Source of the DNA: a virus | Taxonomy: Duplodnaviria; Caudoviricetes | Virus record (IMG/VR): IMGVR_UViG_3300006735_000038 | Coordinates: 1 to 57,074 of that record | Length of the DNA stretch: 57,074 bases | Direction: 5' to 3' (one strand) | Translations under genes and position numbers: made by a program | The notes under the pieces: model-generated | The model's input: only the letters and a program-made list of their open reading frames with translations | The model's database searches: none | What the model was told of the DNA's origin: nothing | Shown here: one piece after another, positions 22,413 through 56,803 of the stretch | How positions within the stretch are numbered: position 1 is the first letter of the stretch | Layout: each line of letters begins with the position of its first letter

Positions 22413-22810
22413 TCTTTGCCTCCAACTTGGTAGCCAGTTTGATCTTTGAACAATTCAAATTCAGCTAAGTCATCAGCAAAACCACCAGACTCCCTTAAAG
22501 TTACCGAGTCCATATTAGGTATGTCTAACTTTATGTCTTCAATAATGTCACCATCAAATGTTATTGGATTGTTTTCATTATCTAACTCTACAGCAGCAAG
22601 AGTACTACTATTATCTAAAATTTGATTTAAATACTTAGGGTACTCATCAAAGACTTCTCTGTATCTTTCAATCCGTTGATTCAATAGGCTTGCATCGCCA
22701 GCGCTAAAGCCTTGTTCAGAAATAACAGTTCCATCATCGTTAAAATTAAGAAATGCTCTTACACGCTGTGGAGATACATCAAACTGATTTATTATTGCAA
22801 ATCTATTCAT
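22409..22810 (-). CDS. Hypothetical acidic protein (possible immunity partner)
   Basis: 133 aa; start overlaps the stop of the 3,497-aa ORF. Confidence 0.6.
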   Translation of the reverse strand: MNRFAIINQFDVSPQRVRAFLNFNDDGTVISEQGFSAGDASLLNQRIERYREVFDEYPKYLNQILDNSSTLAAVELDNENNPITFDGDIIEDIKLDIPNMDSVTLRESGGFADDLAEFELFKDQTGYQVGGKE

Positions 22811-31800: not shown

Positions 31801-33296
31801 TCAGGCTCATCTACCTCTAGCTCAAAGTCAGAAGGAATATCGTACCTAAAGCGAGTACCATCAGGATTTAAAGCTATCGAACGTTTCCTATGTGTACTAA
31901 GCCTACCAACATGGTCAATATAAAGGCCAAGTTCTTCTCTTCTTCTCAAAAAAGGCGTACCAAAATTATGAGCATCTAGAAAATCTTGACGACTCTCATA
32001 ATCGTCATACAACCCAGCATTTCGTTCATCAATATACTTAACCAACGAACTTAATTCAACAAAGTCCTTATACCTAGACATATTCAGTCTATGCGCATCA
32101 GAATCATCAGCAGATATAGCCAAAAAATCTAAAATATCTTCTTCAGTTATTTCCGACTCATCGTAATTCCTAGGTATTCTTCTACCCACACTATCTACAC
32201 GCTCCCTCTCAGGAAGCAGCTGATCTATCCAAAAATTCTTTAACTCTGTGTGCTCTTGCTTAATTCTGTCATCTAACTCATTTCTATCACGAGAATGCAT
32301 AGACAACGCACGCAGCTTCCTAGGCTTTCTTTTTCGGTCCTTTAATTCACCTTTTCGATTCCTCAAATTAAATTTTCTACGACGTAAACTTTGAGTATTA
32401 TTTAAAGACCGCCTAGTGTACCTTCTAGTTCCATCAACAATTCCATATCGCTCAGGAGAATAATCTGGCCTCAAATAATCTGGCATACCCCTCTCGTCAA
32501 CTCCAATGCCTTGACGATCAGGGAGAACAGAATTAATAAATACGGGCGGAGGAGCATCAGGAAGGGTTTCATCAACAGAATCTATGTCTCTAGGAGTAAC
32601 AGGCCTAGTGTCTCTCCTTCTAGCACTAAGAGCATTTAACAAACTTCCATTTATGGCTTCAATCTGTCGCTGAACTTTACGGTTATCTCTTGCCTCACCA
32701 GAAGTCAAAGAAAGCCTTCCAGCTTCAGCTTTCATAGAGCGCTCAATAGCATCAACAATTTTAGTATATGTAGCGTCATCAATATTTTCAAAGTCAGGCA
32801 TATTGATTAAACGTTGCAAATTGTTTACATCTTCAAAAAAGGAATCACCTTTTAAGACATCTCTATCTTCACGTGACATCCCTGACAACTGGGATAACTC
32901 CCCAATCGACCTACCTAGTATTCCTCTAGTTTCATACTGAGCGGCAACATCATCTAAATTCTTGGAAGAAGCCAATAAAGAATCTATAGCATTATCCAAA
33001 TTATTTTTATAAATATCTGGTAAATCCCTAGACCTTTGCTCAGGTCGCTTAGGAAGCAGCCTGCCCCTTCTTCTAGTTGTATTAGTTATTGCCGCTTGTA
33101 ATTTAGCAATAGAATCAACAACCGAATCAGCCAACCTATACCCACAATTAGTACCAAACCTATCAGTAAAGGTTCCACCCCGTCTAGTTCCGGGTGGGCA
33201 CCTAAATCTGTTCGCCCCCGCATCAAAAATAGCAGCACTAGATGCACGACGCCCTACCCTAGCAAGCCGTCTAGGAGCACTTTGTTTCTGATCCAA
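22803..33296 (-). CDS. Giant acidic polyvalent protein with GNAT-like and C-terminal HipA/PI3-4-kinase-like domains
   Basis: 3,497 aa. N-terminal FRCPPG..GGTFTD..CG. RGSGLSR..FYDALGV..ASLDGSAAWARAG (~24640-24780). YITKYS, NEALG..ANALG, LLDGVINNSDRNAGNL and LPIDAGRG kinase motifs (~23340-23800). The frame stays open upstream to the T9 run at 33395-33403. Confidence 0.8.
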   Translation of the reverse strand: MDQKQSAPRRLARVGRRASSAAIFDAGANRFRCPPGTRRGGTFTDRFGTNCGYRLADSVVDSIAKLQAAITNTTRRRGRLLPKRPEQRSRDLPDIYKNNLDNAIDSLLASSKNLDDVAAQYETRGILGRSIGELSQLSGMSREDRDVLKGDSFFEDVNNLQRLINMPDFENIDDATYTKIVDAIERSMKAEAGRLSLTSGEARDNRKVQRQIEAINGSLLNALSARRRDTRPVTPRDIDSVDETLPDAPPPVFINSVLPDRQGIGVDERGMPDYLRPDYSPERYGIVDGTRRYTRRSLNNTQSLRRRKFNLRNRKGELKDRKRKPRKLRALSMHSRDRNELDDRIKQEHTELKNFWIDQLLPERERVDSVGRRIPRNYDESEITEEDILDFLAISADDSDAHRLNMSRYKDFVELSSLVKYIDERNAGLYDDYESRQDFLDAHNFGTPFLRRREELGLYIDHVGRLSTHRKRSIALNPDGTRFRYDIPSDFELEVDEPEFREPLPSPPPPFNPLADSMLEEPPTPPPPPISFSLDRPSMGDDERLPRDDGGIPFTPEFERILDLHDEAFKMSPEDRDLFIDVLADDTDDVTLLELGQSIDERELDIILSGGEFGQAGLMERYPEIAKAHVFLEEIKQRKMINKASVLSDPQGKPWSKSEKELLWYIARAESDGFTVEEAIGNLANVQRIPELDKSGIQLLGEAERDFANRLSVLDNPSEEVTSLSAILTTNTELADIFTGTEIEENVKRLGARSDFGVPFGPALERIYGRIDEIDEEFRNTNASTEKALKELSDDDLVALYVESLNRIEALTSAEDFDIDDVDRSEYLGLLNEFQFIMALEPDERDYARLSEIGGEIQELVDNFTDADRELLKNKYKFIRSDLGERTDSEVGDVATINLDKAIKRELDARQRKQDQIDIDRLLGIGGGSRQSSPEIGYESFSYEDVAEDPTVGLMSTDRDIVEPVADAVNEIPNPVINIEDADADTPPTRNPLAPVINNIAEGVILDLGTNDAPVEEIERIAAMPDGPEKIQAIRELAEARKLENDSGFNFLLQDAIQFAIDDVDSVASLSPNDYPRLFAMREKIKRLPPDSSERDRREEIFNSLIRQTILAELASFVDGDADRIQGDGYHNRSTSLRDSAESRTAERLAAMIQDIFELRLPEGEFSDYFDDMDERDVAKAVGRQILKNFFIEDGKVRDFRTDFDERFGSFSLPAIMSQLRQADGTVLNSSILALDPELLNETRRLLSVGTATPNSGPEFVSEGISDIGIGAVRRNPIGEGLSLRNSWKDNALFQDTFGLEWQDTGFTQEEINDLKGKLVGTFLIDTPEDFLLDFLNRYAKDQDSLQKMIDGDFSELKRDIGDEAFYEVAKVLSRVVDANHRKLGQNTERVLESINGNTGVALFQRYLDSDGTNLLGERGLLEANPTFTGESRYNNLLTKLGVTLYNTALEGPEQDSSLKRKMGLLLGIPSDTDTALDAIDNTNNLVDDDFRNISSRIDSVTALKVTRAIFGGEKDVYPYENTPDIQPSEIADKLENSDLSLEELDNYINFLIDIEGSVFAWQDDITRFLPSNTDEEFTSVSNIDTFEKINQKLLAGSLLAKYRKESQFSERIQEKLDIGSVPYSQALFESLRPFDLNIEFIDRDGETVNLSDDKRKLLDIILGGEDSVVDRLLSVQNVNIDNPTVQSKIKENLNRLDSEQLNSLADALEELFFTNSAGNLLPTRVRERGGSAPAQAILSELVRESDLSFSNPEDRQNILNLAYQLEGFERRALEDPTNTVFSLVMSDGETREIDFSDTTMAALDIGFTSNPPLRDFDIFKRLVNEEIARRTVEETTRDVINIFEQETDGIAEKILTHNPNIENRFGLGQLPEAELIDKLRTIVYAKMTSKELDTMRLNMKSILAEETQRNTIRYRRLSKISNMLDELALEINENQLIGESAIREIGSPSSYDIEGTGINFGFAHQVDPRVHSLRGLLDAIRYRDDLDDLDDLDPIDTGWARAIAPETLRTLGAERLGNLISIAEAGNIFDTYIRRMTGQDNENLGIGSIRTHRSLDISGFLSTLTNEEIKEFHSAYERLKGMSSRDLTGAERLNRRKMDKAFFEINVDRDIVGNSWLYQTDRYLPLTDALLEIAIPEAGRNLVTRSPYARQPELPEYVSATLAPRSMGDMSIEGLRDAAAKIDRLLYGTELNDDPFIQPATRERLTRQLKNLELEIDRKLAIAALSLGDFENYQFITLAELGVAQRDLPRMKQILLEQLDADGVSDNLLNALGVIDNLQKDLGVINRRGVDGRPIEKSTNAFTVDLLNPISGVSQRTEPMTARVDMALEAWVVGDLERARNILRPAISDDIAIAIKLRNDQIRGVVGDDPNNSPILELLGIDLRTPDESEVKEGLQKMALAYLLEGYESRRSIILSLREFDGETGAGFPDEVFGIDSGVIEDDFLDDDMLEAIYARLEAYGITLKDLGIIGDTQFLSSTVFDDSDEIWTDAPDTSSFGPMSDKAKKFIDDLYALEEQFHNGELDGPMAEWFRQNLKGERLNLQHIKQLNDEIISLRGTLSSPISNPKGYEARGEIAPNVFRFNGNIAYFSGEVDRELRIRSRRNLRIRNSFAKARARGRVASKAEVPNVWGEESADNARNQLDTATEARVASQAVNIWGGDIERGITPWAPPDLTTGITPPRPSISVDPEPSTVDNESIKTFKDNFGLSGIYIPLNKTVEADFGEGLKQYTLVTKPEVYDAGGAKIPASGGYSITIDGEFTHYLVPSDVLEQVNELGAFSPEGQDLLNNFAIKGARTQGPALNRGNFKRQITSSGGTSEATHAGFFAGKATFTPVNGDPIVVDARGSGLSRVMNDNAMLFYDALGVDKWTMGASLDGSAAWARAGVITPDTATLDSLDREMNQVADLAIAFFTKRDAGIDTTPDEKHAALITGNISRAKAIKAMANFGPSVNRPQHVDYIRTLDPSGEGKNTAAFVFFSQNVFDSAKLKQVIEQNPDIEIENLGTVDDPILDLPLDLPDSAFLVYGNRDLTGVNPLSSPDSPLPSDRTASEISKILSGRQSVTESPTTGRAFKKDAYGAVVFTGTVNTSTLQDRGQLRTTGPSTAGPNDPLTPADIPSDTPLDKIKQDFLFDFFVLNSSEDRGDDSRFFRTGLVSGNNTVLFEDKETGKKYITKYSPVGDGGATFDHPAFGGGENTEENGGTNEALGAAMANALGFEVGAVISAGDINNIRNAVIIEPLQNIHGPDIVPLNDEFNGGLPPSPTDAQYVELLGSVDPADIVRLLLLDGVINNSDRNAGNLFIKRNPDGTVSLLPIDAGRGVYSRTSRAVDGKIGITYMGPTVPDESKIIRIEEDGREQLKKIIVAHLMDTFDTTPNLRRMGLAKVLGKDSVRGKDTSEIKIDKSKLNSVVDDILSQVAQLGNTIDDESILDIERNFGTIDRQMGEFGDLGDAVIDVRRAFQERRRWLQQASREDIIKLLEEAYETIQAPFDEVVNDE
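27316..27346. repeat. 9-bp tandem repeat encoding DDLDDLDDL
   Basis: Three near-identical TCATCTAAG-type units inside the giant ORF. Confidence 0.6.
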
Positions 33297-44353: not shown

Positions 44354-45469
44354 TCAACTTTGGTCTTGTCTTCGGAGTCGATCTGATCTTGTTCTTGGCC
44401 CAATCGGAACAGGTGATCCCCAAATCTCAGAGATCATCAAAGTCCTAACACAACTTTCAATCGGATATCCGTATGGGTCTTTGGCTCTTGCTTGTTTGAA
44501 TTGATGTGCAAATACCATAGCTCTTTTTTTCAAACCCGGAGTCATATACGTATTCTCAATGCATTCTCTCACTCCATCCCATCCATTTGAAGCATATGAC
44601 ATAATAGCTTTTTCAACATCGTACTCAGGCCAAAGACGTCGGTGTCCATCCATGTGTGGGAAAATTTCAATAATCCTGTCGTAAAACTCTGGCTCAGTTC
44701 TGATAACATCCGCTATTCTTCGTGCAGCAATAATGTGTACAGCCATACCAACTCTTTGATTAGCTCTACCTAAGTAAGCTAAATCATAATACTCTGAAAA
44801 AGTTCCATTATGCTCTTCAGTGACAAACTTCATAACATCATCGGTTCCCCAGTCATATATAGGTCTAGTTAGTCTTAATGGGATAGATTTAGATAATCCC
44901 TTAGGTCGAGTTATATAGTTCTCATGAAGTTTTTGCACAACAGTTCTGTAACGAAGCATTGACTCATTTGCTCTAATACCTAGAAGAAAAGCTACTCTTC
45001 CTGATTTGCCTTGCATCAGGTATTCATCCATTTTTCTAGAAATCGTTTTGGTCCGATCTTCACCAAAGTGTTCAGCAGTTATCGCATGTTTTGGTATGTC
45101 AGTAAACAGTCTTCCTTCTGACTCTCGCATTGCGCTCCAAGTTAATAAGAACTCTCTTTGTCCCAAGCAAAACAGTTCGCTAAACGTAGGCAAGCAATAC
45201 CATTCCATATCAACCCAGTCATACTCACTCACTTCTTTAACAAACTTAGTCACAGAAGGGGCAACAAACTCTTCATCTCTGTACAAAACTTTAACAGGGC
45301 CTAGCCCTCTTTTCTCATGGATCTCTTTAGCTAAATACAACATCGCAGTTGAGTCTTTACCACCAGAAAAACAAACACATACAGTATCAAACGTGTCATA
45401 AATGTGCTCTAATCTTTTTCTGGAAGCATCAACACAGTTTATGTCTAAAAACATTCTTTTTCTTGGCAT
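44354..45469 (-). CDS. PAPS-reductase-superfamily PP-loop protein, IbrA-like
   Basis: FSGGKDST PP-loop, YRDEE, WYCLP, LGIRANES..RYR, PIYDW..DV. Confidence 0.85.
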   Translation of the reverse strand: MPRKRMFLDINCVDASRKRLEHIYDTFDTVCVCFSGGKDSTAMLYLAKEIHEKRGLGPVKVLYRDEEFVAPSVTKFVKEVSEYDWVDMEWYCLPTFSELFCLGQREFLLTWSAMRESEGRLFTDIPKHAITAEHFGEDRTKTISRKMDEYLMQGKSGRVAFLLGIRANESMLRYRTVVQKLHENYITRPKGLSKSIPLRLTRPIYDWGTDDVMKFVTEEHNGTFSEYYDLAYLGRANQRVGMAVHIIAARRIADVIRTEPEFYDRIIEIFPHMDGHRRLWPEYDVEKAIMSYASNGWDGVRECIENTYMTPGLKKRAMVFAHQFKQARAKDPYGYPIESCVRTLMISEIWGSPVPIGPRTRSDRLRRQDQS

Positions 45470-45471
45470 GC

Positions 45472-46257
45472 TTATTGATCCATATTTTGGTTGATAAAGT
45501 CAAGAATTTGCTCAGCAGAAGTGTCACCCGAGTATTTATCTGACGACTTAATGTGTCGTAAAAAGTCATACCATTCTCTTTGCTGATTTGTGTCTTCAAA
45601 AACTAACGTATATTGCACTGTTACTTTTTTATTAGACGTCACAGGCGTGACAGTGCTTCCTTGAGTCACTATATCCTCAGTACTTGATGTTGGATTAAAA
45701 GACTTTCCGCCTTCACCACTATCAGGAAGCTCATCTACAAACTTATGATCTGAATCATCTGGCTGTGGCGAAACAATTATTTGAGGTGCTTGCCATCCCT
45801 CATTACTGTCTAAAGCTCTAGACTCTTGTATGACAGAATTTTCAATAGCTGTAACAGCAAAATCATCCCAACCTAACAAATCAAAAAACTCAGGGTCAGC
45901 CTCTGAAACATCTGAAATAAGGTCATACAGGCTCTGCTTATCTATTTCCCCAAGTTCAGATATCCTATTATCTGCTAATGAAAATGCAATTGCGTCTTCC
46001 TCATTCAAGTCCACTATAGAAACAGCTATCTCATCCCAGCCTAATTCTTTAGCTGCTGCCAACTGATGATTTCCTGCTATAACCGTAACTTTCCCACTAA
46101 GATCTCTCACCGCTACAATTGGTTTTAGTTGCCCAAATTTATTGTAAGAAGCTTTGATAGCATCAACATCTCCAATTCGTGCATTGCCTTCTAACGGAGT
46201 AAGCGAGTTTATATCTACCGCTAAGTACCTTATCGCATCATCTATTTTGTCTATCAT
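45472..46257 (-). CDS. ParB-like N-terminal domain protein
   Basis: L.P..GNAR..V.AIK.S..KFGQ..PIV..VIAGNH..AAKELGW..LADNR. Confidence 0.8.
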   Translation of the reverse strand: MIDKIDDAIRYLAVDINSLTPLEGNARIGDVDAIKASYNKFGQLKPIVAVRDLSGKVTVIAGNHQLAAAKELGWDEIAVSIVDLNEEDAIAFSLADNRISELGEIDKQSLYDLISDVSEADPEFFDLLGWDDFAVTAIENSVIQESRALDSNEGWQAPQIIVSPQPDDSDHKFVDELPDSGEGGKSFNPTSSTEDIVTQGSTVTPVTSNKKVTVQYTLVFEDTNQQREWYDFLRHIKSSDKYSGDTSAEQILDFINQNMDQ

Positions 46258-46622: not shown

Positions 46623-47003
46623 TTATTGATTATTTGACATCTCGTCAAGAATTGTTTGAAGCCTATCAACTTCAGAATCCCAGTTTACCTTGACACCTGC
46701 AACCCCTTTACTTAACAAATAGTCAAGATGCTCATTGCCAAGCTCTTGCTCTAACCACCTTGCCCACACCAAAGGATTTTTAGACTGCTTCCAATGACAC
46801 GAAGCACAAAGAGCTAAAGCATTTAGCTCATCAGTTCTAGTGGCTGAAATACTCCGAGAAATAATATGTGCACACTGAATCTGCTTGCCTTCTCCTCTAG
46901 TTATCCCACACCAACGACAAGTAAAATTATCACGTGTTCTAACGACGAGACTATGCAACTTAGTTGCTTTAGCTTTCGCCTTCTTGCCATAGTTGGTAGG
47001 CAT
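46623..47003 (-). CDS. NinG/Rap-like HNH endonuclease
   Basis: VRTRD..TCRWCG..QCAHIISR..TR..ELN..ALCASCH; start at 47003 by TAATG coupling. Confidence 0.75.
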   Translation of the reverse strand: MPTNYGKKAKAKATKLHSLVVRTRDNFTCRWCGITRGEGKQIQCAHIISRSISATRTDELNALALCASCHWKQSKNPLVWARWLEQELGNEHLDYLLSKGVAGVKVNWDSEVDRLQTILDEMSNNQ

Positions 47004-47896
47004 TACAAAGGAATGTTTTGATTCAATGGAAAGTACCAACCTCCTTGTTGGTGCTGTATTGCTGGCGAAGGCATATCAGGTCTATGATTAACGCCAGAGT
47101 AATGCAGAATTGCCGTCTCTCTCCACAAGTCAGGATCATTAGGAATTGAACCACGATGCATCAGCCTAGCATGCCAAAGCAAAACATCGCCTTTTTTAGC
47201 TAAGAACTTCTCAATCTCTAACTCACCTCTATTTAAGATGTCTTCAAACATGGGAGTAAGAAATCTCTCTGAATATTTCGGCCATAAAGGATCACGCCTC
47301 TCAGACTCCTCTAATCGAGCCAAAGTCTTGTCTTGCGTAATAATAGGTAAAACATGTGATCCACGAACATACTCAAACGGTCCAGAATCTTCATGAATGT
47401 CATCAAGCGCTACCCAGATTGCTAAATAGTGATCATAGTTTGAATCAGGATTCAGATAACCATCTTGGTGCCAATTCCTTTGAGTTGATTTCCACCCAGT
47501 TAGATTCAAATGCACCCCCATCGGTTCACCAATCAAAGAACGCATAACGTCTTGTAGTGGACCAAATGTTGAGATGTTCATCAAACTTGGCACTTGATAG
47601 TAGGCGCATTCTCCGGGATATCCTAAAGGCCTGTCATGGTTTACTCTGTTGTGTTGAATCCAATCAGCACGATATGCTTCAATCAGTGGCTCTGGTATGA
47701 AGTTATTTAGTATAACCACTCCATCTTTTCGCCAATCTTTTTGCATCTGTGACAACGTAGATTCATCCACGTCTTCTCTATCTAGTAACGGCAACAGGCC
47801 GTCAGGAATATTACCCGCTAAAGAATTCATTTCATCTAACAAGTCAGGATGATTTTTTAGTTTTTCACCTAAAAAAGTATTTAATCGTTTATTCAT
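47003..47896 (-). CDS. PhyH-family Fe(II)/2-oxoglutarate dioxygenase
   Basis: WHQD, IWVALDDI..SGP..YVRGSH, GDVLLWHARLMHRG. Confidence 0.88.
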   Translation of the reverse strand: MNKRLNTFLGEKLKNHPDLLDEMNSLAGNIPDGLLPLLDREDVDESTLSQMQKDWRKDGVVILNNFIPEPLIEAYRADWIQHNRVNHDRPLGYPGECAYYQVPSLMNISTFGPLQDVMRSLIGEPMGVHLNLTGWKSTQRNWHQDGYLNPDSNYDHYLAIWVALDDIHEDSGPFEYVRGSHVLPIITQDKTLARLEESERRDPLWPKYSERFLTPMFEDILNRGELEIEKFLAKKGDVLLWHARLMHRGSIPNDPDLWRETAILHYSGVNHRPDMPSPAIQHQQGGWYFPLNQNIPL

Positions 47897-48359
47897 TTGT
47901 ATTCTCTTTCAACCAAAAAGGTATTTCAGGAAGCCCATTTTTCCAACTATCTCTGATGCGCTCTGCTTCTAAATAGTGGCGATCAGAATTGCACCAACTT
48001 TCTAAGTGCAGTCCAACAAGTTCAGCCTGTTTTGGATTATCAGTGACCCTCCTGTGACATTTACGGCATATAGCTAATAAATTCTTCTTATCTAATATGC
48101 TACCATTTTGAGATCTATTTATAATCTCATGGACATCAACAGTTTGATTTACTTTAACAATTCCTGATTTGCCGTCATAAACGCTAAATATTATGCATGC
48201 CTCACAGGACTGATACTCATTAAGCATGTTTGAAACTATCTTACGCCTATCCACATACTTAGATTTCATTTTGTCAGATCTTGGTTTAAGTGGTGTGCGC
48301 TTAAGCTGTTTATTTCCTCGTTTTAAAGGAGTTCTTCTTAAAGGCTTACCTCTTTTCAT
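47889..48359 (-). CDS. HNH-type endonuclease with basic N-terminus
   Basis: CEAC..DVHEIINRSQ.GS..NLLAICRKCH. Confidence 0.75.
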   Translation of the reverse strand: MKRGKPLRRTPLKRGNKQLKRTPLKPRSDKMKSKYVDRRKIVSNMLNEYQSCEACIIFSVYDGKSGIVKVNQTVDVHEIINRSQNGSILDKKNLLAICRKCHRRVTDNPKQAELVGLHLESWCNSDRHYLEAERIRDSWKNGLPEIPFWLKENTNE

Positions 48360-51852: not shown

Positions 51853-51907
51853 TTTACCTCATAGTAAATAGTAGTTAGTAATAGAGTATCCGAAAGTGAC
51901 AGAAAAG

Positions 51908-52330
51908 TCAAGAATCTAAAATTTCAGAAATACTCTCATCAATAGACGCTGACCTAAAACTTTCTATTTTACCTTTCGGAGAAGAAATCAAACTTTTAAG
52001 TATCTTGCTAAGATTATCGCTCATAGCGTCAATAGCTTTTTCTCTAAAGTCTGGATGGTCTTCAATATCGTCTATCTGGCACATATCAGTGTCAACTGTA
52101 GACTGCATATCTTTTAAAACATCATTCATAATTATTTCGTTAAAGTGATGATGCAAATATTGATATGACAATCCAACCAAAACAGCACTCTCATCCCAAA
52201 GCAGTAATTTATAGGGCTCTGGTCCAAGAGCATCATTGTCACACACAATAAACGTAACCTTCACTCCATTTTTATTCATAACTGCTAAGACATCATTATC
52301 TAAAAAGTCTACTTCTTCATTCTTACTCAT
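51908..52330 (-). CDS. Hypothetical acidic protein
   Basis: 140-aa ORF overlapping the whiB stop. Confidence 0.6.
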   Translation of the reverse strand: MSKNEEVDFLDNDVLAVMNKNGVKVTFIVCDNDALGPEPYKLLLWDESAVLVGLSYQYLHHHFNEIIMNDVLKDMQSTVDTDMCQIDDIEDHPDFREKAIDAMSDNLSKILKSLISSPKGKIESFRSASIDESISEILDS

Positions 52331-52563
52331 ATGTCTTAACCAATCTTTCTAGCTGTGGGCCCGTCTTTCCACCCCATACTCCTATTTTAAGATTTTCTGA
52401 TACAGCAAACTGTAAACAATCATTAACACTTGGACAAAAATCGACACACACTTGGCATGCTTTCTTTCTATCTGAAGGATGACTTGAAAAAAACAATTCA
52501 TTTTGCCCTGAACATGGCGCATCCTCAAACCAACTAGGCATTTTTAAATTAAGCATGCCCATA
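52323..52563 (-). CDS. whiB: WhiB-family Fe-S transcription factor
   Basis: W..APC..ELFF..C..C..CP....CL..A..GVWGG. Start is uncertain (ATG 52563, 52557 or 52542). Confidence 0.88.
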
Positions 52564-52605
52564 TGATAAAAAAGATTTGTCAAGAAAACAAATGGAAAAT
52601 ATGGC

Positions 52606-52634
52606 TTGACACTATTCGCTTGTAATTATAAAGT
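52606..52634 (+). promoter_or_regulatory. Sigma70-type promoter driving the non-coding region
   Basis: TTGACA-N17-TAAAGT. Confidence 0.7.
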
Positions 52635-52639
52635 AACAT

Positions 52640-53045
52640 GCAACAAGACAGGAGAGAAATTTTTAAAGCCTTCCGAGAAATCTCGATGACATAAAGGCTT
52701 GCTTGGACACTGGTGGGAAACACGTTACGCAACTGGTGATATAAACGGGCACGCCTACCCAAAGAGTGAAGATTTGAATCGCACGATACACTGGATCAAA
52801 GTGCTAGGCAGCACTCCAGTCACTGCACGGAGAACATTAGGACTTGAGGAGTAGGTTCGGAACTAGCAAAAGCCCAAGCGGTTCCGGCACACGGGCTACC
52901 AGAGCCAAATCTGGGGAGTGTTGCGTCGCTGAAAAAATAGGCGGCGTTGGAGTTGAAGAGCAAGTAGATCGTATTTTCATTACAGGATCAGCCTAGTGCC
53001 GTTCGTAGGGTATCGCCTAATACCACACGAATGGGTAGGTAGTCT
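52640..53045 (+). ncRNA. Candidate large structured non-coding RNA (~400 nt)
   Basis: No credible ORF, visibly higher GC than the flanks, many local hairpins and long-range complementary segments; bounded by its own promoter and by the next gene's promoter. Confidence 0.6.
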
Positions 53046-53074
53046 TTGCCAAAAACAAGTCAGGGCTATAGAAT
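53046..53074 (+). promoter_or_regulatory. Promoter of the methyltransferase operon (leaderless)
   Basis: TTGCCA-N17-TAGAAT-N7-ATG (53082). Confidence 0.7.
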
Positions 53075-53081
53075 AAATCGT

Positions 53082-53576
53082 ATGCAAACAAAAGAAGAGC
53101 TAGAAGAGTGGTACGGAACATCCGACCCTTGGGATTACCAAACCAACTCAGACGATATCTACCGAAAAAAATTCTACCTGACAGTTCTGGAAGATGTAGG
53201 CCCCGCATTTGCTCAAGCATTGGATATCGGAGCTGGAGAAGGGTGGATCACAAAAGACCTACCCAGCGACACAAAGCATGCTTTCGAGATTAGCGACGAA
53301 GCCGCAGGCAGACTTCCAGAAGGAGTCGAGCGAGTCCAACAGATAACGCACAAGTACGACCTAGTGCTTGCAACCGGAGTCCTATACGAACAATACGATC
53401 ATGCGCTTGTAAATCGAATAATTCATGGAGCGTCATCTCAAACTCACGGGACCAAGATCATGATTGCGGGTATAAAAGGCTGGCTTAAGCCTTACGGATT
53501 CGGTAGACGAATAAGACATTTTGAGATACCCTACAGAGAGTACACACATGTGGTTGACGTATGGGAGTACGCATGA
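53082..53576 (+). CDS. SAM-dependent methyltransferase, NodS-like
   Basis: N-terminal DPWDY, motif I LDIGAGEG, YDLVLATGVLY. Confidence 0.75.
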   Translation: MQTKEELEEWYGTSDPWDYQTNSDDIYRKKFYLTVLEDVGPAFAQALDIGAGEGWITKDLPSDTKHAFEISDEAAGRLPEGVERVQQITHKYDLVLATGVLYEQYDHALVNRIIHGASSQTHGTKIMIAGIKGWLKPYGFGRRIRHFEIPYREYTHVVDVWEYA

Positions 53577-54094
53577 GGTTAGCACACAACATAGGAAATG
53601 AAGATCATTCAAACTACCACACCCGTGAGCAAATCCTTGCCTGTAATGAGCCAATTGGGTTCGATGGGGTGTACTCGAATGTGTACGAAAATCAAGATGT
53701 TCTAGAGGGCAAGTCAGGAATCATGTTTGTCATGGGTGATTATATGGGCAAAGACAACGAGTTTGACTTAGAAAACGTACCCAAACTAGAAACATTCTGC
53801 ACGCTCTTGCAAGTGAAGCAACTCTGCTTTACCTACAATTTTGAAATAGGATGGCACACTTGGTCGCATAGAAACTTGACTGAACTTTCAGATAAAGAAG
53901 TGCTACAAGAAATTACAGCACCCTTCCCTACAAAATATTTAAGGTATCCATATGGTGAGTACGATGATAGAGTTGTAAGCCTAGTTAAAGAAGCAGGCTA
54001 CGAAAAAGCATACGCAGTTACTCAGGGAGAACAAGATGAATTTGCCCCTGACGCCAGATACAAAATATACAGTGATTATGTCCCTTTCATCTAG
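53573..54094 (+). CDS. Polysaccharide deacetylase (NodB/CE4-like)
   Basis: IGFDG, EIGWHTWSHRNL, RYPYGEY..V..AGY..A; ATGA overlap. Confidence 0.8.
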   Translation: MRLAHNIGNEDHSNYHTREQILACNEPIGFDGVYSNVYENQDVLEGKSGIMFVMGDYMGKDNEFDLENVPKLETFCTLLQVKQLCFTYNFEIGWHTWSHRNLTELSDKEVLQEITAPFPTKYLRYPYGEYDDRVVSLVKEAGYEKAYAVTQGEQDEFAPDARYKIYSDYVPFI

Positions 54095-54809
54095 TAAAGA
54101 AGTATTCTTAGAAAAAGGGGTGGTAGTCATTCCTGCGGTTTTCACAGAAAAAGAATGTGATTTGATGAAAGCTGCCGCCTACTCAGTTACAGACGAAGAT
54201 ATAACTAGCGCAGGATATCCGCATGTTCCAAGCGAAAAAGCCTACAATAAGAAATCCTTAATCTTCTACCCTGCATTAGCTAACGATTATTTGAACGTGA
54301 TTAGAACTGACCCAAGAATGCTACATATTGTTAGCACATTTTTAGGACCTAATGTAAGACAAATAAACAATCAAGTGTATTTTAGAGAAGCAGAAGATAT
54401 TGATACATTTGCTTGGCACCGAGATACAATTTTCAGAGAAAGCTCTCAATTCAAAGATACTGTCGAGACAGATTACCTACAAACAATAATAGCGATAGAC
54501 AATATTACGGATGAAAACGGAGCCGTGGAATTTATTGAGGGATCGCACAAATGGGATACTTTTGATGCGCCTGATAACCTTAGAAAGTTTGAGCGAAATG
54601 AACTATTTGGGAAAAAGCACATAGCGCTAAAAGGCGATGTTATGATTTGGTCAGTTATGATTGTACACGGAAGTGAAGCAAATACTTCTGATCAATCTCG
54701 CATGACATACATGAATGGCTTTTGTAAATCGGATAGCGTACTAGACTACCCTGACTACTTAGTAGACGGACGGTTAGTTCCAAATATTGATCCAAACAGG
54801 ATACCGTAA
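54078..54809 (+). CDS. PhyH-family Fe(II)/2-oxoglutarate dioxygenase
   Basis: WHRD, IAIDNIT.ENGAVEFIEGSH, GDVMIW..VHGS..N.S..SR. Confidence 0.88.
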   Translation: MSLSSSKEVFLEKGVVVIPAVFTEKECDLMKAAAYSVTDEDITSAGYPHVPSEKAYNKKSLIFYPALANDYLNVIRTDPRMLHIVSTFLGPNVRQINNQVYFREAEDIDTFAWHRDTIFRESSQFKDTVETDYLQTIIAIDNITDENGAVEFIEGSHKWDTFDAPDNLRKFERNELFGKKHIALKGDVMIWSVMIVHGSEANTSDQSRMTYMNGFCKSDSVLDYPDYLVDGRLVPNIDPNRIP

Positions 54810-55432
54810 TGCTAACAGTTGTAGTCGCATCATACTATTACGGGCACCTTGCTTCACACTGTATTGAAAGCTTACTATCACAAACTGTACACCCAGAAAA
54901 AATACTTTTTGTTGACGACGGTGTTGGAGATTGTGCTCACCTTCCAAAAATTTATCCAGAAGTTGAATACACCCTTAGAAAGAAAAACTTAGGCACAGTG
55001 GATAACTTTCAAGATATGCTTATGAAAGTTGAAACCGAATACACGATGTTCCTTGGGGCAGACAACTGGCTAAGATCAGACGCAGTTGAAACCTTGCTAA
55101 AACAAGACACTGACATAGTGACGTATCATGTAATGGTTACAGGAGAACATAAAATGGGGCATAGAGACGCTAAGGAAGAAAATATAGTTGACGGCGATGT
55201 TTACTGGCAATGGGATGGGCACCATGGATCAATGATGTACAGAACTGCCCTTGGACAAAAAGCAGGATACAAGCGACACGAAGATTTTCAAGAAGGTGAC
55301 GCAGCATGCGAAGACTGGGCACTATGGGACAAAATGTTAGAACTAGGAGCAACGGTTTCACACATAGAAGAGCCGTTACTATATTACAGGCGTCATAGAG
55401 AAAACTTTATAGACTGTAAAGTCACTGATTAG
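54809..55432 (+). CDS. Glycosyltransferase family 2
   Basis: TVVVASYYYGHL..CIESLLSQT..ILFVDDG, FLGADN, CEDWALW, PLLYYRRH. Confidence 0.9.
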   Translation: MLTVVVASYYYGHLASHCIESLLSQTVHPEKILFVDDGVGDCAHLPKIYPEVEYTLRKKNLGTVDNFQDMLMKVETEYTMFLGADNWLRSDAVETLLKQDTDIVTYHVMVTGEHKMGHRDAKEENIVDGDVYWQWDGHHGSMMYRTALGQKAGYKRHEDFQEGDAACEDWALWDKMLELGATVSHIEEPLLYYRRHRENFIDCKVTD

Positions 55433-55772
55433 AAATTCTTTTTACCTGCTGAGCATCTAAAAACACAGTTGCCGTACCCCATGCGAAGTCAACCTGCTCT
55501 ATCTGCACATCAAAATGAGATGCAATCGCTGCTCGTATTTTTAACTCCGACAATGGGTCAAGCTCCTCGCCTAGGTCAACAGGTATGGTAGCGATTTCAG
55601 TCGAAACAGGATTTAAACACGCCTTACAGGATAGCTTTGTTTCATTAATTTTAGGCTTGCGTTGAGAGTCCAAAGAATGCCCACACTCTAACTGTAAGTG
55701 CCACTTTGTATTTCCATATGTGCCAATTTTAACTGCTTCAGTGACAAGTTTTCTCGGCCCTTTTTTGTCCAT
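55422..55772 (-). CDS. Hypothetical protein with CGH..CKAC Zn-ribbon-like motif
   Basis: Likely start ATG 55772 with TACAAT 6 nt upstream. Confidence 0.6.
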   Translation of the reverse strand: MDKKGPRKLVTEAVKIGTYGNTKWHLQLECGHSLDSQRKPKINETKLSCKACLNPVSTEIATIPVDLGEELDPLSELKIRAAIASHFDVQIEQVDFAWGTATVFLDAQQVKRISNQ

Positions 55773-55793
55773 AAAGTTATTGTATTTAAGCCC

Positions 55794-55822
55794 TTGACCC
55801 ATTGCAAGGGAAACCATACAAT
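55794..55822 (+). promoter_or_regulatory. recA promoter (leaderless)
   Basis: TTGACC-N17-TACAAT-N6-ATG (55829); no SD. Confidence 0.75.
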
Positions 55823-55828
55823 AAACCT

Positions 55829-56803
55829 ATGAATAAAGATCAATTACTTAGTGATGCACTAAATCAAATAGAAAAAGAATTTGGCACAGGAACTGTCATG
55901 CGATTAGGTGATGCCAGTTCAATGGAAATAGAAACAATATCCACAGGATCAATTGCGCTTGATATTGCGCTTGGAGTTGGCGGATTACCTAAAGGCCGTG
56001 TATGTGAAATATATGGTCCGGAGTCATCTGGAAAAACAACGTTAGCTTTGCATGTAGTTGCTGAAGCACAAAAACTTGGTGGATCTTGCGCATTTATTGA
56101 CGCAGAACACGCACTAGACCCTGTATACGCTAAGGCTATTGGGTGTGACGTAGAAAACTTGCTAGTAAGTCAGCCGGACACTGGGGAACAAGCACTGACT
56201 ATTACTAACAAACTTATTGAATCCGGTGCAATCGATGTTATCGTTGTAGACTCTGTTGCTGCCCTAACACCTGCAAAAGAAATTGAAGGTGAGATGGGTG
56301 ACAGTTTCGTGGGGCTTCACGCAAGGCTGATGTCCCAAGCCATGCGCAAGATAGTGGCTAACCTAAACAACTCTAAGACGATCCTTATAATGATTAATCA
56401 AATTAGAGAAAAGATCGGTGTCATGTTTGGTTCACCTGAGACAACAACAGGTGGGCGTGCTTTGAAGTTTTACTCATCTGTTCGATTAGACATTCGACGA
56501 ATAGAAACACTTAAAGCAGAGGGCGAAGCTTCAGGAAACAAAACAAGAGTTAAAGTTGTGAAGAACAAAGTTGCCCCTCCGTTTAGACAAGCAGAGTTTG
56601 AAATAACCTATGGAGAAGGAATTAGTAGAACTGGAGACATTGTTGATATCGGCGCATCATTAGGAATACTCGATAAAAAGGGTGCTTGGTATGCTTACAA
56701 CGGTGAAAATATTGGTCAAGGAAGAGTGAACACAAAAGCTTTTCTTGATGAAAATGTTGATATTAGAGAAGAAATAGCAGATAAGATATATGCCTCGATT
56801 TGA
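55829..56803 (+). CDS. recA: Recombinase RecA
   Basis: [71 protein letters not shown]. Confidence 0.97.

What the first reader, a model, noticed from the sequence alone, without database searches (positions are those of the whole stretch)
52606..53045. Candidate novel ~400-nt highly structured phage ncRNA
Seen: in an otherwise gene-dense genome, a GC-richer gap without a credible ORF follows TTGACA-N17-TAAAGT. The next gene has its own leaderless promoter, so this is not simply its 5' UTR. Local stems: AAGCCTT 52666-72/AAGGCTT 52694-700 enclosing CGAGA/TCTCG; ACTGGA 52790-95/TCCAGT 52815-20 enclosing GTGCT/AGCAC; AGCCC 52871-75/GGGCT 52893-97; CCAGA 52899-903/TCTGG 52910-14; GCGTCGCT 52923-30/GGCGGCGT 52940-47; CCGTTCGT 52999-53006/ACGAATGG 53027-34 enclosing GGTAT/ATACC. 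Long-range pairs: GCCTACCCA 52753-61/TGGGTAGGT 53032-40; ACGCAAC 52727-33/GTTGCGT 52920-26; AACGGGCAC 52744-52/GTGCCGTT 52996-53003 (one bulge). Possible pseudoknots: CTAGGC 52804-09/GCCTAG 52991-96 and CGGAAC 52858-63/GTTCCG 52881-86. Some pairings are mutually exclusive, hinting at alternative folds. I could not match it to tRNA, tmRNA, RNase P or group I/II intron consensus. Established: phages encode large ncRNAs of unknown function (GOLLD, ROOL). Inference: a new large RNA class, a ribozyme, or an RNA-polymerase-binding RNA (Ms1/6S-like), transcribed divergently from whiB.
Basis: partly seen in the sequence, partly recalled or inferred. Interest (0 to 1): 0.8.

Follow-up and report, generated by a model that had tools for sequence, protein, structure and literature searches.

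The report
New large structured phage RNA family
A gene of about 400 bases for a folded, non-coding RNA of no known family sits beside the whiB gene in a group of uncultivated tailed phages, and evolution has preserved its intricate shape, so it probably does an important but still unknown job during infection.

Summary
The gap is real and holds a conserved structured RNA element on the + strand, about 52640-53040. Homologues were found in 45 of 45 pattern-matched IMG/VR viral contigs (37 distinct cores) and in no GenBank phage. The one match in 185,579 prokaryote species genomes was a chance hit. On 34 distinct sequences an 87-pair model is 97.3% paired, against 31-39% when partners are slid. 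43 pairs show compensatory changes, against 24.3±2.6 in shuffles (0 of 500 reach 43).

The fold has three nested long-range helices, a long central arm, a pseudoknot, and a 4-6 bp kissing contact between two hairpin loops that has switched sequence about 8 times. A TTGAC-N17/18-TAnnnT promoter is conserved in 34 of 36 sequences. A single-stranded AAGGAG lies near the 5' end. In 12 of 37 variants the next gene is convergent, so this is not a leader. No frame is open, and Rfam 15 gives nothing.

Folding energy is not exceptional (z = -1.15). No transcript was seen and the function is unknown. My best reading is a stand-alone, trans-acting architectural or RNP RNA, possibly self-associating. The main rival is a primer RNA at a replication origin.

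The parts
52606..52634 (+). Promoter of the RNA: -35 TTGACA (52606-11), 17-nt spacer, -10 TAAAGT (52629-34). The start is predicted near 52640-52642.
   Evidence: TTGAC[ACT]-N17/18-TAnnnT is present in 34 of 36 homologues with 14 different -10 hexamers. Of the two misses, one is cut by its contig end and one has TTGACG.
52640..52673 (+). Unpaired, sequence-variable 5' leader that carries an invariant Shine-Dalgarno-like AGGAG (52650-54).
   Evidence: GGAG is present in all 35 rows of A5, 14-20 nt after the -10. No conserved start codon or ORF follows it. No conserved partner was found for it.
52674..52685 (+). Hairpin H1 (CGAG/CUCG).
   Evidence: helix 1: 100% paired, 3 of 4 pairs compensatory (CGGG/CCCG, UAGG/CCUA).
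52686..52695 (+). Nearly invariant unpaired block AUGACAUAAA.
   Evidence: Only the L116/L118 type differs, by one base.
52697..52965 (+). Core domain closed by three nested long-range helices: H2 52697-702/52960-65, H3 52708-11/52951-54, H4 52720-23/52918-21. It also holds the small hairpin H5 (52726-38).
   Evidence: RNAalifold predicted these helices unaided. H2 is 98% paired with 4 of 6 pairs compensatory; H3 is 93% with 4 of 4; H4 is 100% with 1 of 4.
52753..52856 (+). Long central arm, helices H6-H12 (GCCUA/UAGGU at the base, ACUGG/CCAGU, AGUGC/GCACU at the tip).
   Evidence: helices 6-13: 94-100% paired, 15 of 28 pairs compensatory.
52805..52810 (+). Kissing loop 1 (UAGGCA), at the tip of the central arm.
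   Evidence: (helix 15: 5 of 5 pairs compensatory).
53014..53019 (+). Kissing loop 2 (CGCCUA), at the tip of the 3' arm, complementary to loop 1.
   Evidence: across 12 loop combinations (about 8 sequence types) a sequence's own loops match over 4-6 bp (mean 5.6). Loops of different types match over a mean of 3.1 bp, and 0 of 110 such comparisons reach 6.
52857..52896 (+). Pseudoknot: S1 UCGGAAC 52857-63 with GUUCCGG 52881-87; S2 GCCC 52872-75 with GGGC 52893-96.
   Evidence: S1 is 100% paired with 3 of 7 pairs compensatory, including a register change in the L117 clade. S2 is 100% paired, but 3 of 4 pairs never vary and 1 varies on one side only, so S2 rests on complementarity alone.
52899..52946 (+). 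Two hairpins: H14 (CCAGA/UCUGG, loop GCCAAA) and H15 (GCGUCGC/GCGGCG, invariant A-rich loop UGAAAAAAUAG).
   Evidence: helix 18 is 100% paired; helix 19 is 97% paired with 3 of 7 pairs compensatory.
52966..52999 (+). Linker between the core and the 3' arm. Its sequence varies; its length is roughly constant.
53000..53040 (+). 3' arm (H17 CGUUCGU/ACGAAUG, H18) followed by a G-rich tail (GGGUAGGU). Conservation ends here, so this is the inferred 3' end.
   Evidence: helices 20 and 21 are 97% and 85% paired.. No terminator-like site on the + strand.
52323..52583 (-). whiB, the divergent neighbour. It leads the operon whiB, 140-aa protein, 175-aa protein, Rad52-like protein, Cas4-like nuclease.
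   Evidence: Pfam Whib E = 2e-11, Rad52_Rad22 E = 1.9e-13, PDDEXK_1 E = 3.5e-31. whiB lies directly beside the element in the loci that hold left flank, except in the L013/L014/L020 clade.
53046..55432 (+). Inserted accessory cassette with its own leaderless-type promoter (53046-74): SAM methyltransferase, polysaccharide deacetylase, PhyH dioxygenase, GT2 glycosyltransferase. It is not part of the RNA.
   Evidence: The cassette is absent or different in other members.
55422..55817 (-). p131, a small basic protein with a conserved C-x-H...C-x2-C pattern. It is always the first conserved gene after the RNA and always convergent with it. Bacterial-type RecA follows at 55802-56803 (+).
   Evidence: 32 of 37 cores have it; it directly abuts the RNA in 12; RecA E = 1.6e-136.

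Best explanation
This is a stand-alone gene for a trans-acting, highly structured non-coding RNA of about 400 nt on the + strand, roughly 52640-53040. It belongs to a lineage of uncultivated whiB-encoding myoviruses.

Inferred: host RNA polymerase transcribes it from a conserved sigma-70/sigma-A-type promoter that faces away from whiB.

Shown by covariation: the RNA folds into a core closed by three nested long-range helices. The core holds a long central arm, a pseudoknot and two hairpins. A separate 3' arm is tied to the tip of the central arm by a 4-6 bp loop-loop kissing contact.

Inferred: the many invariant unpaired blocks are tertiary or protein contacts, so the RNA works as a folded architectural or ribonucleoprotein RNA. 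It does not work as an mRNA, a leader or a base-pairing antisense RNA.

Inferred from precedent: the invariant AAGGAG about 8-13 nt from the predicted 5' end binds the 30S subunit without translation. That would either shield the RNA from 5' exonuclease, as STAB-SD does, or recruit ribosomes.

The cellular target is unknown.
For: Family. The element was confirmed by profile search in 45 of 45 pattern-matched viral contigs, giving 37 distinct cores. It is single-copy in the window.

Selection. The RNA core is 75-81% identical at nucleotide level between the window and six diverged relatives. In the same pairs whiB is 59-62%, the methyltransferase gene 62-69% and the 140-aa gene 56-64% identical.

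Structure. 87 pairs are 97.3% paired. Shuffles give 89.4±0.3% (0 of 500 reach the observed value) and slid partners give 30.8-38.8%. 43 pairs are compensatory, against 24.3±2.6 in shuffles (0 of 500) and 4-10 when slid. The covariation score is 0.292, against 0.145 in shuffles. RNAalifold found 82 pairs unaided, 28 of them compensatory.

Kissing loops. About 8 co-varying sequence types were seen.

Strand. 207 G-U cells would be A-C mismatches on the other strand: 97.3% paired on +, 91.3% on -.

Promoter. Present in 34 of 36 sequences with 14 different -10 hexamers.

Not a leader. In 12 of 37 cores the next gene is convergent and abuts the RNA. In 20 of 37, different cassettes of 1.2-3.1 kb with their own promoters intervene.

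Not coding. No known family.

Precedent for the 5' motif. STAB-SD passages in PMC4113751 and a mycobacterial polypurine stabiliser in PMC2358910.
Against: No transcript was seen. The only RNA run holding part of the stretch covers the methyltransferase gene alone, at depth about 2.5, so neither the ends nor expression are shown. No intrinsic terminator was found on the + strand.

The minimum free energy is ordinary (z = -1.15).

The model was derived from the same sequences on which it was counted, and the 34 sequences fall into roughly 8-10 clades, so cells are not independent events. S2 of the pseudoknot is invariant apart from a one-sided change at one pair (C-G to U-G), so it is not supported by compensatory change.

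The role proposed for AAGGAG is argued by analogy only. No partner protein was identified: the model of p131 is mediocre (pLDDT 68.7) and matches no solved fold.
Confidence: 0.78

Rival explanations
1. The element is a replication-origin primer RNA of the ColE1 RNA II or T4 R-loop origin type. The promoter drives a structured transcript whose G-rich 3' tail forms a persistent hybrid with the DNA. That hybrid is processed to prime leading-strand synthesis at the point where the genes change strand.
For: The element sits exactly where gene orientation flips and where cumulative GC skew reaches its minimum in the window. It lies among recombination and replication genes: Rad52-like, Cas4-like nuclease, RecA. 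It has a strong promoter but no terminator. A conserved G-rich 3' tail, GGG-N1-2-GG, ends the conserved stretch.
Against: A skew minimum at a switch in transcription direction is expected without any origin. No iterons or AT-rich unwinding element are conserved downstream. What follows the 3' end differs between members: cassettes in some, the end of a convergent gene in others. A pseudoknot, a kissing contact and about 45% invariant positions exceed what R-loop priming is known to need (this last point is from my own knowledge).
Confidence: 0.1
2. The element is a cis-acting leader or riboswitch-like regulator of the downstream + strand genes, transcribed through into them.
For: No terminator separates the element from the methyltransferase gene in the window. 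In 20 of 37 cores + strand genes follow it. One RNA-library contig starts at 53067, before the predicted leaderless start; it has low depth and could be DNA.
Against: In 12 of 37 cores the next gene is convergent and abuts the element. The downstream cassettes are unrelated to one another. Where checked (window; flanks printed), the following + strand gene has a promoter-like site placed for a leaderless start. The methyltransferase family occurs in 54 other viral loci that lack the element.
Confidence: 0.05
3. The element acts at DNA level, for example as single-stranded DNA hairpins for packaging, recombination or a protein-binding array, and the apparent RNA structure is incidental. Alternatively it is a decayed or unusual protein gene.
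For: Stems can also form in single-stranded DNA. Spurious minus-strand ORFs of up to 116 aa occur in some members.
Against: There are 207 G-U cells and a strand asymmetry of 97.3% against 91.3% paired. A promoter with the correct orientation is conserved. No frame is open in all members and there is no codon periodicity. No repeats or iterons were noticed by eye in the alignments; the repeat finder was not run.
Confidence: 0.03

Closest known systems
GOLLD and ROOL RNAs (large ornate phage or prophage RNAs; Rfam families)
   Same: They are large, phage-borne, intricately folded non-coding RNAs of unknown function with covariation-supported kissing loops. In both, kissing loops first inferred from covariation proved to be bridges between RNA copies in RNA-only cages (bioRxiv 10.1101/2024.12.08.627333, passages read).
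   Different: Their covariance models give no match. This RNA is smaller, about 400 nt against roughly 600-800. It lies next to whiB and recombination genes, not next to tRNA islands; no tRNA is present in the window. Oligomerisation is untested here.
phi29-family packaging RNA (pRNA)
   Different: pRNA is about 120-174 nt and belongs to small Bacillus podoviruses. It gives no Rfam match here. This phage is a large myovirus with a tail sheath. The RNA lies in the early DNA-metabolism region.
ColE1 RNA II and T4 R-loop origins
   Same: A promoter-driven transcript at a likely replication start zone. RNA II is also long and structured and uses a G-rich stretch (recalled).
   Different: No antisense partner promoter was found. 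No conserved downstream origin DNA was found. The tertiary structure is far richer.
STAB-SD and polypurine 5' stabilisers (cry3A; mycobacterial katG)
   Same: A Shine-Dalgarno-like polypurine near the 5' end that is not used to start translation (PMC4113751; PMC2358910).
   Different: Those sit on mRNAs, and in katG translation is also required. Here the motif heads a non-coding RNA, and binding to the 30S subunit is untested.
6S RNA and Ms1 (RNA-polymerase-binding RNAs)
   Different: No Rfam match. The consensus fold is multi-branched with a pseudoknot, not a rod with a central bubble.

Membership tests
Any Rfam 15 family (4227 models, including GOLLD, ROOL, OLE, HEARO, raiA, 6S, Ms1, RNase P, tmRNA, SRP, group I/II introns, pRNA, riboswitches) | A score at or above the family's gathering threshold against its covariance model. 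| tested here: not met
   There were 0 matches over the whole window at gathering. At E ≤ 10 on 52500-53150 the only match was 'drum', 14.4 bits against a threshold of 43, E = 5.1. There were 0 matches at E ≤ 5 in six loci holding other members.
tmRNA / tRNA-like | A tRNA-like acceptor and T-arm with a tag reading frame. | tested here: not met
   ARAGORN found 0 tRNA and 0 tmRNA genes in the window.
Self-splicing intron (group I or II) | Interrupts a gene or RNA, with exons on both sides and a catalytic core. | tested here: not met
   The element starts at its own promoter and ends at a cassette promoter or at the end of a convergent gene. It gives no Rfam intron match.
6S/Ms1-like RNA-polymerase-binding RNA | A mostly double-stranded rod with a central open-promoter-like bubble. 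| tested here: not met
   The consensus fold is a multi-helix junction with a pseudoknot and a kissing loop. Binding itself cannot be tested here.
Cis-regulatory leader / riboswitch | Lies upstream of, and on the same strand as, the gene it controls, consistently across members. | tested here: not met
   12 of 37 cores are followed directly by a convergent gene, and the cassettes in the other members are unrelated to one another.
Cis-regulatory leader / riboswitch | An expression platform (terminator or sequestered ribosome-binding site). | tested here: not met
   No terminator-like site lies on the + strand. In the window the downstream gene has a -10 hexamer 8 nt before its ATG and so no room for a ribosome-binding site. 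The other flanks printed look alike.
Self-assembling RNA (ROOL/GOLLD/pRNA-like behaviour) | Loop-loop complementarity that co-varies. | tested here: met
   About 8 loop-pair types, 4-6 bp in each. Helix 15 has 5 of 5 pairs compensatory.
Self-assembling RNA (ROOL/GOLLD/pRNA-like behaviour) | The contact forms between molecules, giving a defined oligomer. | not testable with these tools
   Covariation cannot tell contacts within a molecule from contacts between molecules. The loops are two different hairpins and are not palindromic.
STAB-SD-type 5' stabiliser | A Shine-Dalgarno-like polypurine near the 5' end with no start codon at initiation distance. | tested here: met
   GGAG is present in all 35 aligned rows, 14-20 nt after the -10. 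No conserved start codon or ORF follows it.
STAB-SD-type 5' stabiliser | 30S binding that blocks 5'-3' decay. | not testable with these tools
   This needs toeprinting and half-life assays.
Origin primer RNA (ColE1 RNA II-like) | A persistent RNA-DNA hybrid processed into a primer at a mapped origin. | not testable with these tools
   Only circumstantial evidence is available: the strand switch and GC-skew minimum and the G-rich tail.

The most novel reading that the evidence does not exclude
This is a new class of large phage RNA that self-associates. The 5' AAGGAG would tether 30S subunits, so that the phage uses an RNA-only assembly to capture or reprogram host ribosomes early in infection. 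An alternative bold reading that the evidence equally leaves open is a new ribozyme.
Probability: 0.22. Interest if true: 0.92.

Novelty: categorically new. Interest (0 to 1): 0.76.

Why it matters
Bacterial and phage RNAs that are both large (over 350 nt) and intricately folded are rare. Nearly every one whose function has been solved turned out to be a ribozyme or the core of a major RNP (a recalled generalisation). The unsolved phage-borne ones, GOLLD and ROOL, were recently shown to form RNA-only cages.

This element adds a new, well-delimited, covariation-supported example from phages that probably infect Actinobacteria. The host assignment is inferred from whiB and from leaderless-type promoters. 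The element offers a clear experimental handle: two loops whose complementarity can be swapped. Its size suits cryo-EM.

It also marks a hot spot where accessory-gene cassettes are inserted. It sits at the genome's strand-switch point, so it may bear on how these uncultivated phages start replication or take over the host.

Tried and rejected
**Closed or failed tools**
- Scans of metagenome contigs gave no answer three times, so that collection was not searched.
Host genomes could therefore not be searched with the model. Only one pattern was scanned over the prokaryote species genomes, and its single hit, L108, was not confirmed.

**Expression**
- One RNA run (X1) held 0.08 of the sampled words.
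- Laid on the window, its two 151-nt contigs cover only 53067-53217 and 53334-53484. Runs X8 and X9 laid nothing.
- These are contigs at low depth, so this is no evidence for or against transcription of the element.

**Homology searches that found nothing or little**
- GenBank phages, blastn 'distant' with three members: no match.
- Two 18-mers found only two near-identical contigs.
- The sub-domain model R1 found only the window's own copy in 60 sources: the window, 54 methyltransferase loci, L108 and four p131 loci without the element.

**Pairings considered and rejected**
- A terminal 5'/3' helix (GCAA with UUGC) is not conserved.
- The G-rich tail does not pair with GCCUACCC: its variation is uncorrelated.
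- A small ORF from AAGGAG to the invariant UAA was rejected by my reading of L092, where an in-frame UGA precedes it, and because no frame is conserved.

**Single-column covariation**
- Ranking single column pairs was swamped by clade structure. Scanning whole helices worked.

**p131 as a partner**
- Pfam and PHROGs gave no hit. The Atlas returned only unnamed viral clusters.
- The model has pLDDT 68.7 and no PDB match at E ≤ 0.001.
- The Atlas gave nothing for the 140-aa protein.

**Literature**
- Supplements were closed and not consulted. Motif lists in the supplements of RNA-discovery papers could hold it.
Full report
**What is at the coordinates**

The window is an IMG/VR virus record of 57,074 bases that CheckV rates 32% complete. 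Between whiB (52323-52583, minus strand; Pfam Whib E = 2e-11) and a 164-aa SAM-methyltransferase-family gene (53082-53576, plus strand) lie about 500 bases without a credible ORF. GC there is 0.52, against 0.34-0.37 just to the left.

The scan confirms TTGACA-N17-TAAAGT at 52606-52634. It also finds a second site, TTGCCA-N17-TAGAAT, at 53046-53074, ending 8 nt before the ATG. Folded alone, the + strand gives -120.6 kcal/mol with z = -1.15, and 15 of 100 shuffles fold as well. The minus strand gives z = +0.26. Single-sequence energy therefore gives no support. Rfam 15 gives nothing at gathering thresholds over the window. In the permissive mode it gives only a chance-level 'drum' match (14.4 bits against 43, E = 5.1). 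ARAGORN finds no tRNA or tmRNA.

**Homologues**

The methyltransferase gene led to two close relatives. In L003 the neighbouring protein is 88% identical, while the intergenic stretch showed only scattered changes, one of them a compensatory G-C to A-U change. An alignment of 30 methyltransferases fetched 71 viral loci. nhmmer found the element in 17 of them and not in the 54 loci whose methyltransferase is 56% identical or less.

Two patterns built from invariant blocks then found more contigs:
- The first pattern matched 35 viral contigs.
- The second matched 45, which include all 35.
- All 45 were confirmed by the profile.

Together with the window these give 37 distinct cores. The first pattern, scanned over one genome for each of 185,579 prokaryote species, gave a single hit in a Cyclobacteriaceae MAG. 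Neither nhmmer nor the covariance model confirmed it. blastn of three members against 50,697 GenBank phage records found nothing. The metagenome collection could not be searched: three requests did not complete.

**Is it under selection as an RNA?**

Between the window and six diverged relatives the RNA core is 75-81% identical. The flanking genes are less conserved at nucleotide level: whiB 59-62%, the methyltransferase gene 62-69%, the 140-aa gene 56-64%.

No reading frame is open through the element in any of 34 distinct sequences. The longest stop-free stretch is 55-116 aa of about 143, in varying frames and strands. Variable columns show no codon periodicity (p = 0.26).

**Structure**

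RNAalifold on 28 sequences predicted 82 pairs, 28 of them with compensatory changes, including three nested long-range helices. A helix-level scan of my own added a loop-loop contact as the best-covarying helix of all.

I counted an 87-pair model on a 35-row alignment holding 34 distinct sequences. L115, which carries a 48-nt duplication, and the truncated L100, L102 and L111 were left out. The model comprises nested helices, a pseudoknot strand pair and the kissing loops. Results:

| Measure | Observed | Shuffled | Partners slid by 1-3 columns |
|---|---|---|---|
| Cells forming a standard pair | 97.3% | 89.4±0.3% (0 of 500 reach it) | 30.8-38.8% |
| Pairs with change on both sides | 43 of 87 | 24.3±2.6 (0 of 500) | 4-10 |
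| Covariation score | 0.292 | 0.145 | 0.03-0.06 |

Three caveats apply. The model was derived from these same sequences. The sequences fall into perhaps 8-10 clades. The measure 'further pair types' is not above shuffles (190 of 500 reach it).

The kissing contact is the most telling single feature. The 6-nt loop at the tip of the central arm (UAGGCA in the window, 52805-10) and the loop of the 3' arm (CGCCUA, 53014-19) are complementary over 4-6 bp in every sequence, through about 8 different sequence types. Examples are UUGACG/CGUCAA, UGGACG/CGUCUA, CUGC/GCAG, UACCG/CGGUA, UGGUAG/UUACCA, UAGCG/CGCUA and GUAGUG/CGCUAC. Loops taken from different types match over only 3.1 bp on average, and 0 of 110 such comparisons reach 6 bp.

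G-U pairs fix the strand. 207 G-U cells would be A-C mismatches on the other strand, so 97.3% of cells pair on the + strand against 91.3% on the minus strand.

Eight local stems hold across the family, among them one proposed pseudoknot (CGGAAC/GTTCCG). A ninth, GGTAT/ATACC, holds only weakly (76% paired).

The following fail:
- The hairpin AAGCCTT/AAGGCTT is paired in 39% of cells. Its 3' half makes the long-range helix H2.
- The three long-range pairs are paired in 72-77% of cells, and their partners do not co-vary.
- The CTAGGC/GCCTAG pseudoknot is paired in 50% of cells.

Nothing supports alternative folds.

**Anatomy around the RNA**

A TTGAC[ACT]-N17/18-TAnnnT promoter precedes the element in 34 of 36 sequences, with 14 different -10 hexamers. 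The two exceptions are a contig cut at its end and one TTGACG. The same promoter type is enriched in the window: 16 matches against 5.7 expected, and 2 of 100 shuffles reach 16.

An invariant GGAG, usually within AAGGAG, lies 14-20 nt after the -10 hexamer. That places it about 8-13 nt into the predicted transcript, inside an otherwise variable, unpaired leader. No conserved start codon or ORF follows it.

Conservation stops after a G-rich tail (GGG-N1-2-GG). No terminator-like site lies on the + strand.

**Context**

On the left lies the conserved minus-strand operon: whiB, a 140-aa protein, a 175-aa protein, a Rad52-like annealing protein and a Cas4-like PD-(D/E)XK nuclease. On the right, the first conserved gene is always the convergent p131, followed by bacterial-type RecA (E = 1.6e-136).

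The distance to p131 differs among the 37 cores:
- In 12 cores p131 abuts the RNA.
- In 20 cores a cassette of 1.2-3.1 kb lies between. Here that cassette encodes a methyltransferase, a polysaccharide deacetylase, a PhyH dioxygenase and a GT2 glycosyltransferase. Other members carry unrelated genes. Where I looked the first + strand gene after the RNA has a leaderless-type promoter.
- In 5 cores no p131 lies in the DNA held. Two of these have ample room downstream.

The element is therefore an independent gene and not the leader of whatever follows. Its 3' side is an insertion hot spot.

The phage is a myovirus: tail sheath, major head protein, portal and terminase were all found. Its terminase is at most about 44% identical to that of any GenBank phage. 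An actinobacterial host is inferred from whiB and the promoter style. It is not shown.

**Mechanism**

Shown:
- a conserved promoter;
- a conserved multi-domain fold;
- a pseudoknot helix S1;
- a co-varying loop-loop contact;
- large invariant unpaired blocks (AUGACAUAAA, CGUUACGCAA, GGGCACG, CACACGGGC, UGAAAAAAUAG, CCACACGA).

Inferred: a stable trans-acting RNA whose function depends on a precise three-dimensional shape, that is, an architectural or ribonucleoprotein RNA or a ribozyme.

The AAGGAG resembles STAB-SD. That is an untranslated Shine-Dalgarno-like sequence that binds the 30S subunit and blocks RNase J1 (PMC4113751, passages read). A polypurine stabiliser is also documented in mycobacteria (PMC2358910, abstract and passages read). 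I therefore take its role to be 30S binding for stability or for ribosome recruitment.

The kissing contact may lock the 3' arm onto the core within one molecule, or it may join separate molecules. For ROOL and GOLLD, kissing loops first detected by covariation proved to be intermolecular bridges in RNA-only cages, and GOLLD is reported to bind ribosomes in pull-downs (bioRxiv 10.1101/2024.12.08.627333, passages read). Sequence alone cannot decide between the two.

**Rivals**

The strongest rival is a primer RNA at a replication origin. The locus is the gene strand-switch point and the minimum of cumulative GC skew in the window. It lies among recombination genes, lacks a terminator and ends in a G-rich tail. 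Against this, nothing downstream is conserved, and the tertiary complexity exceeds what R-loop priming needs.

The leader, DNA-level and coding readings are each contradicted by specific tests.

**Comparison and novelty**

No Rfam family matches, in the window or in six other members. The sub-domain model R1 (152 positions, 35 pairs) finds only the window's own copy in 60 sources. Five accepted literature searches found no description, and supplements could not be read.

In behaviour the nearest things are the large phage RNAs GOLLD and ROOL and, for the complementary loops, phi29 pRNA. It is a member of none of them.

I rate it a new RNA class. Confidence that it is a real, selected, structured RNA element is high. 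Confidence in what it does is low.

**Limits**

- No transcript or RNA ends have been observed (one search is uninformative).
- No host is known.
- The metagenome collection and host genomes were not searched with the model.
- The structure statistics come from an alignment made without structural realignment, and from related sequences.

Noticed in passing
window 53046-55432; L095, L103, L104, L083, L084, L099 (other cassette); L085, L086: The 3' side of the RNA is a hot spot for swapping accessory cassettes. Here the cassette encodes a SAM methyltransferase, a polysaccharide deacetylase, a PhyH dioxygenase and a GT2 glycosyltransferase. Other members carry unrelated three-gene sets, or nothing. 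Where I looked, a leaderless-type promoter begins each cassette.
   Followed up: partly
window 55422-55817 (-): p131 is a small protein whose likely true start is MDKKGPRK.. here (MSKRGPKR.. in most relatives). It has a basic N-terminus, conserved Cys and His in a zinc-finger-like pattern, and a conserved C-terminal TATVFLDAQQ motif. It is always convergent with the RNA. 35 of 39 viral loci holding it also hold the RNA, and the other four are cut within 0.5-1.6 kb. No family or solved fold matches (pLDDT 68.7).
   Followed up: partly
L115:5415-5884: One member carries a tandem duplication of about 48 nt inside the variable joiner between H5 and the central arm. That site therefore tolerates insertions.
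   Followed up: no
window 52714-52935 in run X2: In one run of unrecorded kind the summed contig depth over the RNA core is 93-166, against about 25 on the flanks. Several variant contigs are present. This suggests that many co-occurring relatives share the conserved core.
   Followed up: no
window 1-57074: Cumulative GC skew falls steadily to about 52-54 kb and then turns. Almost all genes left of whiB are on the minus strand. The RNA sits at the strand-switch point.
   Followed up: partly
window 22803-33296 (-) and 4335-11435 (-): Two giant ORFs of 3497 and 2366 aa lie in the structural region of this myovirus. They were not analysed.
   Followed up: no
L080/L101 (= L014/L015), L081 (= L020), L091 (= L013): In this clade about 1.1 kb separates whiB from the RNA (seen in L080/L101, which hold the left flank). 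In all three an extra stretch of about 200 nt that begins with ATG lies between the RNA and the methyltransferase gene.
   Followed up: no
window 55794-55822 (+) and 51883-51911 (-): Further TTGAC-N18/19-TAnnnT sites lie just upstream of recA and of the 175-aa gene. They suggest leaderless or short-leader early promoters throughout this region. The window has 16 sites, against 5.7 expected.
   Followed up: partly
window 47003-47896 (-), 54036-54809 (+): The window holds two PhyH-family dioxygenase genes. It also holds an HNH endonuclease (47889-48359), a ParB-like gene (45472-46257) and a PAPS-reductase-like gene (44354-45469).
   Followed up: no
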